From NCBI RefSeq assembly GCF_057098645.1, contig NZ_CM169472.1: a DNA stretch of 64,000 nt. One strand, 5' to 3'. Made by a program: the position numbers. This document shows, piece after piece, positions 61,350 through 64,000 of this stretch (its first letter is position 1; each line of letters begins with the position of its first letter).

Positions 61350-64000
61350 TAATTACCCGATGTGCCTGATGCGCCCCGCTCATCAGGCCTGGCGCTCCTG
61401 TCATATATTGAACTCCAGGATTTTATATTTACGCTTCATCCGACACACAAAGCGCACTTTATTAACAAGCTAAAAAGGCGCCGAAGCGCCTTTAGAAGAT
61501 AGTCGAATCAGTGAATTACTGGTATTCGCTAATCGGTACGCAGGAGCAGAACAGGTTACGGTCGCCATAAACATCATCCAGACGTTTCACAGTCGGCCAG
61601 TATTTGTCTGCCACGCCTGCCGGGAATACCGCAACTTCACGGCTGTACGGATGCGCCCACTCGGCGACCAGTTCGCTCTGAATGTGCGGCGCGTTCACCA
61701 GCGGGTTATCTTCCAGCGGCCAGACACCGGCTTTCACCTGGTCAATTTCTGCGCGGATAGCCAGCATCGCGTCGATAAAGCGATCCAGTTCCACTTTGCT
61801 TTCAGATTCAGTCGGTTCAACCATCAGCGTACCCGCCACCGGGAACGACATCGTCGGCGCGTGGAAACCGTAGTCGATCAGGCGCTTGGCAATATCCAGC
61901 TCGCTGATGCCGGTTTCTTCTTTCAGCGGGCGAATATCGAGAATACATTCGTGCGCCACGCGACCGTCACGACCGGTATACAGCACCGGGAAGGCATCCT
62001 GCAGGCGGCTGGCAATATAGTTGGCGTTGAGGATTGCCACCTGGCTTGCTTTTTTCAGCCCTTCTGCGCCCATCATGCGGATGTACATCCAGCTGATTGG
62101 CAGGATAGAGGCGCTACCGAACGGTGCCGCAGAAACCGCGCCCTGGCGGGTTAACATGCCTTCGATTTGCACCACGCTATGACCCGGTACAAACGGAGCC
62201 AGATGCGCTTTCACACCGATCGGTCCCATACCCGGCCCACCACCGCCGTGCGGAATGCAGAAAGTTTTATGTAGGTTAAGGTGTGAAACGTCCGCACCAA
62301 TAAAGCCCGGCGAGGTGATGCCAACCTGGGCGTTCATGTTCGCGCCATCAAGGTAAACCTGACCGCCGAACTGATGCACGACTTCACACACTTCACGGAT
62401 CGTTTCTTCATACACGCCGTGGGTGGAAGGATAGGTCACCATGATACAGGAGAGGTTATCGCCCACCTGTTCCGCTTTCGCGCGCAGATCAGCCAGATCG
62501 ATGTTGCCGTTTTTATCACACGCCACAACCACCACCTGCATTCCTGCCATATGTGCAGAAGCCGGGTTAGTGCCGTGCGCAGAGGCAGGGATCAGGCAGA
62601 TATCGCGATGCCCTTCGTTGCGGCTTTCATGATAATGACGAATCGCCAGCAGGCCCGCGTATTCTCCCTGAGCGCCAGAGTTCGGCTGCATACAGACGGC
62701 GTCGTAACCGGTCAGTTTCACCAGCCAGTCAGCCAGCTGCGCGATCATCTGCTGATAACCTTCGGCCTGCTCCGGCGGGCAGAACGGATGCAGTTCGGCA
62801 AATTCCGGCCAGGTGATGGGGATCATCTCGGCGGCGGCGTTCAGTTTCATGGTGCAGGAACCCAGCGGGATCATCGCCTGATTCAGCGCCAGATCTTTAC
62901 GCTCCAGCGAGTGCATATAGCGCATCATTTCGGTTTCGCTGTGGTAGCGATTAAACACCGGATGGGTGAGGATTTCGTCGTCGCGCAGCATCGCAGGCTG
63001 GATAGAGCGGCTGTCGTGAGCCACGTCTTTGTCCAGCGTGTCGATGTCCAGCCCGTGATTATCCCCCAGTAGTACGCTGAAAAGCTGCATCACGTTTTCG
63101 CGCGTGGTGGTTTCATCAAGGGTGATCCCAACCGCGTTCAGGATATCGCTACGCAGGTTGATTTCAGCCGCTTCGGCACGCGCCAGTACGCCCGCCTTGT
63201 CGGCCACTTCCACACACAGAGTGTCGAAATAGTGCGCATGGCGCAGCTTCAGACCTTTTTGTTGCAGGCCTGCCGCCAGGATATCGGTCAGACGGTGAAT
63301 GCGGTTAGCGATACGTTTCAGGCCAATCGGGCCGTGATAAACGGCATACAGGCTGGCGATGTTTGCCAGCAGCACCTGGGAAGTACAAATGTTGGAGTTC
63401 GCTTTCTCACGACGAATATGTTGCTCGCGAGTCTGCATCGCCATGCGCAGCGCGGTATTGCCAGCTGCATCTTTCGATACACCGATAATACGGCCTGGCA
63501 TTGAGCGTTTGTATTCGTCTTTCGCCGCAAAGAATGCCGCGTGTGGGCCACCGTAACCCATCGGTACGCCAAAGCGTTGCGCCGAACCAAAAACAATATC
63601 CGCGCCCTGTTTACCCGGCGCAGTTAACAGCACCAGCGCCATAATATCAGCGGCAACGCTGACCACAATTTTGCGTGATTTCAGTTCGCTGATAAGCGCA
63701 GTGTAGTCGTGAATTTCACCGGTAGTGCCAACCTGCTGTAACAGCACGCCGAAGACGTCCTGATGGTCGAGCACTTTTTGCGCATCATCGACAATCACTT
63801 CAAAACCAAAGGTTTCGGCACGAGTACGGACCACATCCAGCGTTTGCGGATGAACGTCAGAAGCAACAAAGAAGCGGTTGGCATTTTTCAGTTTGCTGAC
63901 GCGTTTCGCCATCGCCATTGCTTCGGCGGCAGCGGTGGCTTCGTCAAGAAGAGAAGCAGAGGCCATATCCAGCCCGGTTAAATCCAGCGTTACCTGCTGG

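What the first reader, a model, noticed from the sequence alone, without database searches (positions are those of the whole stretch)
61353..61515. Very short bglA-gcvP spacer with a REP-like scar, where the K-12 reference carries an extra gene
Only about 160 bp separate bglA and gcvP here, containing a REP-like palindrome and one terminator hairpin. From memory of the K-12 map, a short-chain dehydrogenase gene (ygfF) lies between these genes there. If that is right, this strain lacks it and the REP-like unit may mark the indel site. This rests on my recollection of the reference gene order.
Basis: inference. Interest (0 to 1): 0.3.

Follow-up and report, generated by a model that had tools for sequence, protein, structure and literature searches.

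The report
Gene-less bglA–gcvP spacer, decayed REP pair
This E. coli strain carries the common "empty" version of a variable site between two core genes: only a worn-out copy of a well-known repeat element and one terminator lie where K-12 has the ygfF dehydrogenase gene, which is ordinary strain-to-strain variation.

Summary
bglA ends at 61352, gcvP (minus strand) ends at 61516, and the spacer is 163 bp. It holds a REP palindrome at 61364-61392 and a hairpin at 61474-61493.

K-12 has ygfF between these genes, and the window has no ygfF.

This is a common polymorphism. Of 5,426 complete E. coli genomes:
- 3,057 carry ygfF.
- 2,349 carry the short spacer.
- 17 carry a third allele, with an outer-membrane "transporter" gene in that position.

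The "scar" reading is only partly right. The window is not K-12 minus ygfF. About 100-119 bp of window-specific sequence replace about 1.02 kb of K-12 sequence.

That window-specific segment is one decayed BIME, made of a z2 REP, a linker and a remnant y REP. It abuts the bglA stop codon on one side and the gcvTHP terminator on the other. A BIME of the same family sits at this terminator in other Escherichia alleles, and K-12 keeps only its terminator-proximal tail. The BIME therefore predates the gene loss.

Citrobacter, Klebsiella and Pluralibacter all have ygfF directly after gcvP, so ygfF is ancestral and was lost here. Everything belongs to known kinds, and interest is low.

The parts
59919..61352 (+). 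bglA (6-phospho-beta-glucosidase). Stop codon TAA at 61350-61352.
   Evidence: Annotated in the 100%-identical record NZ_CP028379.1. tblastn gives 99.2% identity to K-12 BglA.
61353..61363 (+). 11-nt junction TTACCCGATGT between the bglA stop codon and the REP stem. It probably represents the truncated z2-side tail of the BIME (family consensus ACTGATG-N13-TGCCTGATG, with the 13 nt missing here).
   Evidence: Alignments A2 and the BIME family comparison. The assignment is an inference from short matches.
61364..61392 (+). z2-type REP (palindromic unit), GCCTGATGCGCCCCGCTCATCAGGCCTGG. The stem starts 11 nt after the bglA stop. The terminal CTAC of the consensus is mutated to CTGG.
   Evidence: Inverted repeat. 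Pattern match with 0 expected by chance. 24 of 29 positions match the z2 consensus, which occurs perfectly at 28862-28890. RNA hairpin of about -15 kcal/mol.
61393..61429 (+). BIME linker with the conserved core CTGTCATATATTGAA (61398-61412).
   Evidence: It aligns with the linker of the complete BIME at 28.8 kb and with the BIMEs at this locus in other Escherichia.
61430..61444 (-). Remnant of a y-type REP (minus strand GTCGGATGAAGCGTA). It is truncated by a 15-nt deletion shared by all short alleles examined.
   Evidence: A2 and A3. The full, decayed y REP is visible in the transporter alleles.
61445..61471 (+). y-side tail of the BIME (CACACAAAGCGCACTTTATTAACAAGCT). It is the only part of the BIME with a recognisable counterpart in K-12.
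   Evidence: A1, A2, and the K-12 and L029 sequences.
61472..61493 (-). gcvTHP intrinsic terminator. The hairpin is AAAGGCGC-UUCG-GCGCCUUU, with a U-run on the minus strand (61472-61476). The stem is palindromic, so it could also act on bglA read-through.
   Evidence: The hairpin is invariant in all Escherichia alleles and identical in Citrobacter. The consensus scan did not call it.
61516..64000 (-). 3' part of gcvP (glycine dehydrogenase). It runs off the end of the window.

Best explanation
The 163-bp spacer is the gene-less allele of an old, multi-allelic indel site between the convergent core genes bglA and gcvP.

**Shown**
- The spacer consists of nothing but one decayed BIME-2-type repeat element (z2 REP, linker, remnant y REP and tails; 61353-61471) and the gcvTHP terminator (61472-61493).
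- K-12 and 56% of E. coli genomes carry ygfF here.
- 43% carry this short form, in two sequence subtypes.
- 0.3% carry an outer-membrane transporter gene instead.
- ygfF directly downstream of gcvP is the arrangement in Citrobacter, Klebsiella and Pluralibacter, so it is ancestral.

**Inferred**
- The lineage leading to this strain lost ygfF by deletion. It probably also lost the transporter gene, which coexists with ygfF in a Citrobacter-like genome.
- One deletion endpoint is at the bglA stop codon and the other at the z2-side end of a BIME that already sat next to the gcvP terminator.
- The allele was later shuffled among lineages by homologous recombination in the flanking core genes.

**How the spacer works (inferred)**
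- The conserved hairpin terminates gcvTHP transcription.
- The REP hairpin, 11 nt after the bglA stop, acts as a 3' stabiliser and partial terminator for bglA mRNA. At that distance it may also dampen BglA translation.
- The strain lacks YgfF, which was shown in vitro to be a glucose 1-dehydrogenase.
For: **Anatomy**.

**K-12 comparison**
- K-12 has bglA-ygfF-gcvP.
- The alignment shows non-homologous replacement rather than a simple deletion.

**Population counts**
- ygfF is present in 3,057 of 5,426 genomes.
- The short spacer is present in 2,349.
- 423 of these are the window subtype. The rest are the O157/B2 subtype, at 80-90% identity.
- The transporter allele is present in 17. Its product matches Pfam PF13557.

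**BIME identity**
- The spacer aligns along its whole length with the complete BIME at 28.8 kb of the same window.
- The alignment score is 31.5, against 6.2 +/- 2.3 (maximum 17) in 500 shuffles.
- Identity to seven other copies of the family is 70-82%.

**The same element at the same terminator in other alleles**.

**Outgroup synteny**
- Citrobacter and K. variicola.
- K. indica, Pluralibacter and Escherichia sp. E1V33.
- Both genes in tandem, gcvP-ygfF-transporter-bglA, in a Citrobacter-like genome.

**Single origin of the short alleles**: they share a 15-nt deletion, the ACACAC signature and the same junction.

**Recombination mosaic**: the window's gcvP 3' 600 nt differ from K-12 at 4 sites. 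They differ at 18 sites from AR_0067, which shares the spacer.

**Function, from the literature**
- REPs fewer than 16 nt from a stop codon down-regulate translation (PMC12306157).
- REPs act as dual terminator and stabiliser, and REPs between convergent genes correlate with higher expression of both (bioRxiv 10.64898/2026.03.23.713779).
- YgfF has glucose 1-dehydrogenase activity (PMC10645960).
Against: - The order of losses is not resolved. The BIME body in the window is as similar to an unlinked paralogue (78%) as to the BIMEs of the transporter alleles (70-82%) or of a ygfF allele (75%). Sequence similarity therefore cannot name the parental allele.
- The breakpoints rest on matches of 7-13 nt.
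- BIME orientation differs between the ygfF alleles seen (L029, E1V33) and the short and transporter alleles. An inversion or an independent insertion is therefore needed somewhere in the history.
- The generic terminator scan did not call the hairpin.
- No expression data were available, so all functional statements are inferred.
- Phylogroup mapping was not done. Only named strains give hints.
Confidence: 0.8

Rival explanations
1. The strain is K-12-like apart from a clean deletion of ygfF, and the REP-like unit is the scar left at, or created by, the deletion junction.
For: - K-12 has ygfF here and the window does not.
- The REP lies only 11 nt from the left breakpoint.
Against: - The 119-bp window-specific segment is not a subset of the K-12 interval.
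- It is a full BIME collinear with BIMEs at the same terminator in other alleles and species.
- No ygfF-derived sequence remains.
- In place of the BIME body, K-12 has a different GC-rich repeat pair, the HPGQ elements of PMC5100583.
Confidence: 0.07
2. The short allele arose in one step from a ygfF allele that already had a BIME at the gcvP terminator, like E. coli RMDEC465 or Escherichia sp. E1V33. The deletion would have removed ygfF and the second terminator copy. The transporter allele would then be an unrelated side branch.
For: - ygfF alleles with one or two BIME-plus-terminator units between gcvP and ygfF exist.
- The window BIME is as similar to these (72-75%) as to the transporter-allele BIMEs.
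Against: - In both ygfF+BIME alleles seen, the BIME is in the opposite orientation to that of the window.
- The short and transporter alleles share orientation, position and absence of the second terminator copy.
- The first 13 nt after the bglA stop resemble the transporter-allele left end: TAATTACCCGATG against TAATTCCCGCATG in E. whittamii.
Confidence: 0.25
3. The short spacer is ancestral for E. coli, and ygfF (and separately the transporter gene) were inserted into it by horizontal transfer.
For: - The site is clearly an insertion-prone hotspot. K. variicola has four extra thiol-redox genes between ygfF and bglA.
- The transporter gene has a patchy distribution: Escherichia, a Salmonella-labelled assembly, Leminorella and Desulfobulbaceae.
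Against: - ygfF lies 60-72 bp downstream of gcvP in Citrobacter, two Klebsiella species and Pluralibacter, at 78-83% protein identity. This is in line with vertical descent of the neighbours.
- In Citrobacter the same gcvP terminator hairpin directly precedes ygfF.
Confidence: 0.05

Closest known systems
E. coli REP / BIME-2 elements (y + z2 palindromic units; Bachellier, Gilson and colleagues; Ton-Hoang et al. 2012, PMC3333891)
   Same: - A z2-type palindrome with an inverted y-type partner, separated by a short linker, in an extragenic position at the 3' ends of convergent genes.
- Collinear with complete family copies.
- Its presence at a given locus varies between strains, as described for BIMEs.
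   Different: - It is a single copy, not a tandem array.
- The y unit is reduced to about 14 nt.
- The CTAC/GTAG tetranucleotide of the z2 unit is mutated to CTGG. It is probably no longer a substrate for TnpA(REP), which requires GTAG according to PMC3333891.
K-12 bglA-ygfF-gcvP locus (b2901-b2903)
   Same: - The flanking genes and the gcvTHP terminator are the same.
- A stable hairpin starts 11 nt after the bglA stop in both alleles.
   Different: - K-12 has ygfF, its promoter region and a pair of GC-rich HPGQ repeats (about 1,021 bp) where the window has a 119-bp BIME.
- The hairpin after bglA is a different sequence.
REPs within 15 nt of a stop codon that stall ribosomes and lower translation (study cited as ref. 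17 in PMC12306157)
   Same: The REP stem begins 11 nt after the bglA stop codon, inside the reported window of fewer than 16 nt.
   Different: - No expression or tmRNA-tagging data exist for bglA in this strain.
- This REP departs from the consensus at 5 positions.
Strain-specific islands at fixed core-genome sites (K-islands and O-islands of K-12/O157 comparisons; integration hotspots). Recalled from the literature, not checked here.
   Same: Alternative contents lie between the same two core genes. The alleles are spread across lineages and shuffled by flanking homologous recombination.
   Different: The scale is very small (0.1-1.4 kb, at most one gene per allele in E. coli). No integrase, tRNA or IS is involved.

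Membership tests
REP (z2-type palindromic unit of E. coli) | GC-rich imperfect palindrome of about 30 nt matching the z2 consensus | tested here: met
   GCCTGATGCGCCCCGCTCATCAGGCCTGG matches the consensus at 24 of 29 positions. The O157 version matches at 26 of 29.
REP (z2-type palindromic unit of E. coli) | Dispersed multi-copy family in the same genome, in extragenic positions | tested here: met
   - Perfect z2 (28862-28890), perfect z1 (58691-58726) and y (28793-28826) copies are present in the same 64-kb window.
- The REP-bearing part of the locus hits a median of 3 places per genome in about 4,600 genomes.
REP (z2-type palindromic unit of E. coli) | Conserved GTAG/CTAC tetranucleotide, required for TnpA(REP) binding (PMC3333891) | tested here: not met
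   The sequence ends ...CAGGCCTGG instead of ...CAGGCCTAC, in all short alleles examined. This is a decayed copy.
BIME-2 | A y and a z2 REP in inverse orientation separated by a short linker | tested here: inconclusive
   - z2 is intact, the linker core is conserved, and y is only a 14-15-nt remnant after a 15-nt deletion.
- Whole-length alignment to a complete BIME is far above shuffles.
BIME-2 | Occurs as multiple tandem copies | tested here: not met
   There is one unit here. Two tandem units occur at this locus in Escherichia sp. E1V33.
Rho-independent terminator (gcvTHP) | GC-rich stem-loop followed by a U-run on the transcribed strand, just after the last gene | tested here: met
   - On the minus strand, an 8-bp perfect stem lies 22 nt after the gcvP stop, followed by UUUUUAGC when the A-U pairs are counted as tail.
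- The hairpin is invariant across Escherichia and Citrobacter.
- The generic scan did not call it.
Rho-independent terminator (gcvTHP) | Transcripts actually end there | not testable with these tools
   This needs Term-seq or 3'-RACE.
ygfF (SDR; glucose 1-dehydrogenase in vitro) | An ORF or remnant homologous to K-12 YgfF at this locus or elsewhere in the window | tested here: not met
   - tblastn of YgfF against the window finds nothing.
- blastn-short of the spacer against K-12 finds only the bglA end and the terminator.

The most novel reading that the evidence does not exclude
The BIME family at this locus may behave as a module together with the terminator hairpin it sits beside.

**Observations**
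- In three independent places, a BIME of about 150 nt is bracketed by direct copies of the local terminator.
- These places are window 28735-28942, E. coli RMDEC465, and Escherichia sp. E1V33 (where the unit occurs in tandem).
- The units measure 173-180 nt.

**Reading**
This would suggest a hairpin-targeted insertion or duplication mechanism. It could create palindromic direct repeats that promote inversion of the BIME and deletion of the neighbouring gene. Such a mechanism would explain why ygfF and the transporter gene were repeatedly lost exactly at the BIME ends.
Probability: 0.15. Interest if true: 0.45.

Novelty: already known. Interest (0 to 1): 0.15.

Why it matters
The finding matters little beyond bookkeeping.

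- It documents that ygfF is an accessory gene, absent from about 43% of complete E. coli genomes. These include the O145:H28, O157:H7 and B2 lineages. ygfF was recently shown in vitro to encode a glucose 1-dehydrogenase.
- It shows that the "empty" site is a decayed BIME plus the gcvTHP terminator.
- It is a clean small example of a core-genome site with three or four alternative contents, and of REP/BIME turnover changing the 3'-UTR of bglA between strains. This could be used to test REP effects on expression in natural alleles.

Tried and rejected
- **Rfam scan of the spacer**: no match.
- **Generic promoter/terminator scan**: nothing called. The terminator was judged from the fold and from conservation instead.
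- **Gene remnants in the spacer**: a search for ygfF or transporter remnants found none.
- **First global alignment to the transporter alleles**: cheap gap extension produced scattered, meaningless blocks. It was replaced by MAFFT alignments of the gcvP-proximal parts.
- **Identifying the parental allele by BIME similarity**: inconclusive, because orthologue and paralogue identities overlap.
- **E. coli WB61 as an intermediate allele**: it looked like an independent partial deletion, but its junction contains N bases. I do not rely on it.
- **Finding the divergent ygfF class with E1V33 ygfF as query**: uninformative, since all hits were about 93% identical. A spread listing found them instead.
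- **Literature**: no paper describing this polymorphism was found.
- **Outgroup coverage**: the degenerate gcvP 3'-end pattern did not capture E. fergusonii, E. marmotae or bona fide Salmonella references. Those outgroups are untested.

Full report
**1. Observation**

The window is 100% identical over this region to E. coli O145 str. RM9872, NZ_CP028379.1. There, bglA and gcvP are annotated as convergent neighbours.

- bglA ends with TAA at 61350-61352.
- gcvP, on the minus strand, ends at 61516-61518.
- The spacer is 61353-61515, 163 bp.

The spacer contains two inverted repeats. One is GCCTGATGCGC/GCTCATCAGGC at 61364-61388. The other is AAAGGCGC/GCGCCTTT at 61474-61493.

The first matches a z2-REP pattern. 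That pattern has only one other hit in the window, a canonical REP at 28864-28890, and no hit in 100 shuffles. A fuzzy search with recalled y, z1 and z2 consensus sequences found perfect z1 and z2 copies elsewhere in the window. The spacer copy has 5 substitutions.

The second repeat is a perfect 8-bp hairpin, followed on the minus strand by UUUUUAGC. It lies 22 nt after the gcvP stop. The hairpin is identical in all Escherichia alleles aligned and in Citrobacter. The generic scan did not call it, and Rfam finds nothing.

**2. The K-12 comparison**

K-12 has ygfF between bglA and gcvP. The gene is 744 bp, lies on the minus strand, and encodes an SDR oxidoreductase (Pfam).

The alignment, however, shows that the window is not K-12 minus ygfF (A1).

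- Identity runs through the bglA stop codon and then stops.
- It resumes clearly only at CTAAAAAGGCGCC, around window position 61470.
- Weak similarity covers about 20 nt before that point.
- Between these limits the window has 119 bp, where K-12 has about 1,021 bp.
- The K-12 segment holds a different hairpin after bglA, then ygfF and its upstream region. It also holds two GC-rich HPGQ repeats.

**3. Population picture**

In 5,426 complete E. coli genomes:

| Allele | Genomes | Share |
|---|---|---|
| ygfF present | 3,057 | 56% |
| Short spacer, at least 80% covered | 2,349 | 43% |
| Transporter gene, 1.4-kb interval | 17 | 0.3% |

The short spacer has two subtypes.

- The window subtype, at 95% identity or more, occurs in 423 genomes. 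These include the O145:H28 strains.
- A subtype 10-13% divergent occurs in O157:H7, Nissle 1917, UM146 and ST131.

The third-allele gene is annotated "transporter". Its product of about 300 aa has a signal-peptide-like N-terminus and matches Pfam PF13557, Phenol_MetA_deg.

The three classes almost exactly partition the collection, so ygfF is lost rather than moved.

**4. What the window-specific 119 bp are**

I aligned the short spacers with the gcvP-proximal part of the transporter alleles. These came from E. coli L018 and L005, Escherichia sp. MOD1-EC7003, E. whittamii, and the available 324 bp of E. albertii. The sequences are collinear from the REP to the terminator (A2).

The z2 REP is intact in E. 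whittamii and E. albertii. It is half lost in the E. coli transporter alleles.

Next to the terminator lies a decayed y-type REP. In the short alleles this REP is cut down by a shared 15-nt deletion.

The whole arrangement is: y-side tail, y REP, linker with the core TTCAATATATTG, z2 REP, z2-side tail. It aligns with the complete BIME at window 28763-28914 (A3).

- The alignment score is 31.5, against 6.2 +/- 2.3 (maximum 17) for 500 shuffles.
- Identity to seven other family copies is 70-82%.

By the published classification, y plus z2 in inverse orientation is a BIME-2-type unit (PMC3333891). The spacer is therefore: bglA stop, one decayed BIME, gcvTHP terminator, and nothing else.

The z2 unit has lost the CTAC/GTAG tetranucleotide that TnpA(REP) needs. 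Together with the truncated y unit, this marks it as a dead copy.

**5. The BIME is older than the indel**

- K-12 keeps the y-side tail next to the terminator (GTACTTTGTCATC).
- E. coli RMDEC465, which has a divergent ygfF (93.7% identity), has ygfF, terminator, BIME, terminator, gcvP.
- Escherichia sp. E1V33 has two tandem 173-nt BIME-plus-terminator units before ygfF.
- In these two ygfF alleles the BIME has the opposite orientation to that in the window.

Because the terminator is itself a perfect palindrome, two direct copies can also recombine as inverted repeats. That could flip the BIME. This last step is an inference.

**6. Polarity**

- In Citrobacter, ygfF starts 61 bp after gcvP, immediately behind the same terminator hairpin, and bglA follows convergently.
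- K. indica has bglA-ygfF-gcvP, and Pluralibacter has gcvP-ygfF.
- K. variicola has gcvP-ygfF, then four thiol-redox genes, then bglA.
- A Citrobacter-like genome has both genes, gcvP-ygfF-transporter-bglA.
- A Salmonella-labelled assembly has gcvP-transporter-bglA.

Hence ygfF next to gcvP is ancestral, and the window's state is derived by loss.

The most economical history starts from a two-gene ancestor. The K-12 type lost the transporter gene, the transporter type lost ygfF, and the short type lost both.

The short alleles share their junction, the 15-nt deletion and an ACACAC signature, which indicates a single origin. Their 10% internal divergence suggests that origin is old.

The order of events is not settled. 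A one-step deletion from a ygfF+BIME allele remains possible (confidence 0.25), because BIME similarity does not discriminate.

The left breakpoint lies within about 13 nt of the bglA stop. TAATTACCCGATG resembles two sequences. One is the transporter-allele left end, TAATTCCCGCATG. The other is the BIME z2-side tail, TAATACACTGATG. This is compatible with a deletion between short imperfect direct repeats, but these matches are too short to prove it.

**7. Recombination**

The window's gcvP 3' 600 nt differ from K-12 at 4 positions. They differ at 18 positions from strain AR_0067, which has the same spacer at 99.2% identity. The spacer allele and its flanks therefore have different histories. 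This is expected if alleles are exchanged by homologous recombination in bglA and gcvP.

**8. Function (inferred)**

- The conserved hairpin is the gcvTHP terminator.
- The REP hairpin (about -15 kcal/mol) starts 11 nt after the bglA stop.
- Published work reports that REPs fewer than 16 nt from a stop codon stall ribosomes and reduce translation (PMC12306157).
- It also reports that REPs act as combined partial terminators and mRNA stabilisers. REPs between convergent genes are associated with higher expression of both genes.
- All three alleles place a stable hairpin 9-11 nt after the bglA stop, so the 3' end of bglA is probably under similar constraints in each.
- The strain lacks YgfF, which has glucose 1-dehydrogenase activity in vitro (PMC10645960).

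**9. Verdict**

The feature is an ordinary accessory-gene presence/absence polymorphism at a REP/BIME-bearing intergenic site, built entirely from known kinds of elements.

I found no paper describing this particular polymorphism. It is nonetheless visible in any K-12 versus O157 or O145 comparison. Interest is low.

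Noticed in passing
window 28735-28942: A complete BIME sits between two perfect 28-nt direct repeats of a terminator-like hairpin, AGGCCGGGTGGGTAATACCATCCGGCCA, spaced 180 nt apart. The BIME comprises a y REP at 28793-28826, a linker and a z2 REP at 28862-28890. It lies between convergent ORFs 27797-28729 (+) and 28950-30575 (-). It looks as if the BIME arrived with, or caused, a duplication of the local terminator.
   Followed up: partly
L010 1695-2062 (Escherichia sp. E1V33) and L029 2255-2455 (E. coli RMDEC465): The gcvP terminator is present three times in E1V33, separated by two tandem 173-nt BIME-plus-terminator units at 97% identity. It is present twice in RMDEC465, around a single BIME, upstream of ygfF. 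The unit size matches the 180-nt case at window 28.8 kb.
   Followed up: partly
L018 2548-3441, L012 7651-8589, L014 159-1082: A third allele of the bglA-gcvP interval encodes a roughly 300-aa signal-peptide protein of Pfam PF13557 (Phenol_MetA_deg, an outer-membrane transporter family). It occurs in 17 complete E. coli genomes, E. whittamii and Escherichia sp. MOD1-EC7003, and probably in E. albertii. Homologues at 40-60% identity occur in Desulfobulbaceae and Desulfovibrio MAGs.
   Followed up: partly
L025 2850-4903 and L026 1961-4014: A Citrobacter-like genome carries both ygfF and the transporter gene in tandem between gcvP and bglA. This is the likely ancestral two-gene state.
   Followed up: partly
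L022 4976-8500 (Klebsiella variicola): Four genes are inserted between ygfF and bglA: redoxin, DsbA-like, DsbD-like, and a 119-aa protein without a Pfam hit. The same site is therefore an insertion hotspot in another genus.
   Followed up: no
window 61516-62115 versus L001 and L028: The first 600 nt of gcvP next to the spacer are nearly K-12-identical (4 mismatches), even though the spacer allele differs. A strain with the same spacer (AR_0067) has 18 mismatches there. This is a recombination mosaic around the indel.
   Followed up: partly
L019 2548-2700 (E. coli WB61): This is an apparent fusion of a transporter-gene remnant to a C-terminally truncated gcvP. The junction contains N bases, so it may be an assembly artefact rather than a real deletion.
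   Followed up: partly
L024 (assembly labelled Salmonella enterica, GCA_053164955.1): Its gcvP-transporter spacer looks highly similar (roughly nine positions in ten by eye, not computed) to that of the E. coli transporter allele. That would be unusually high for non-coding DNA between genera. It suggests horizontal exchange or mislabelling.
   Followed up: no
window 58691-58726: A perfect z1-type REP (GCCTGATGCGACGCTGGCGCGTCTTATCAGGCCTAC) lies just downstream of the ORF ending at 58663.
   Followed up: no
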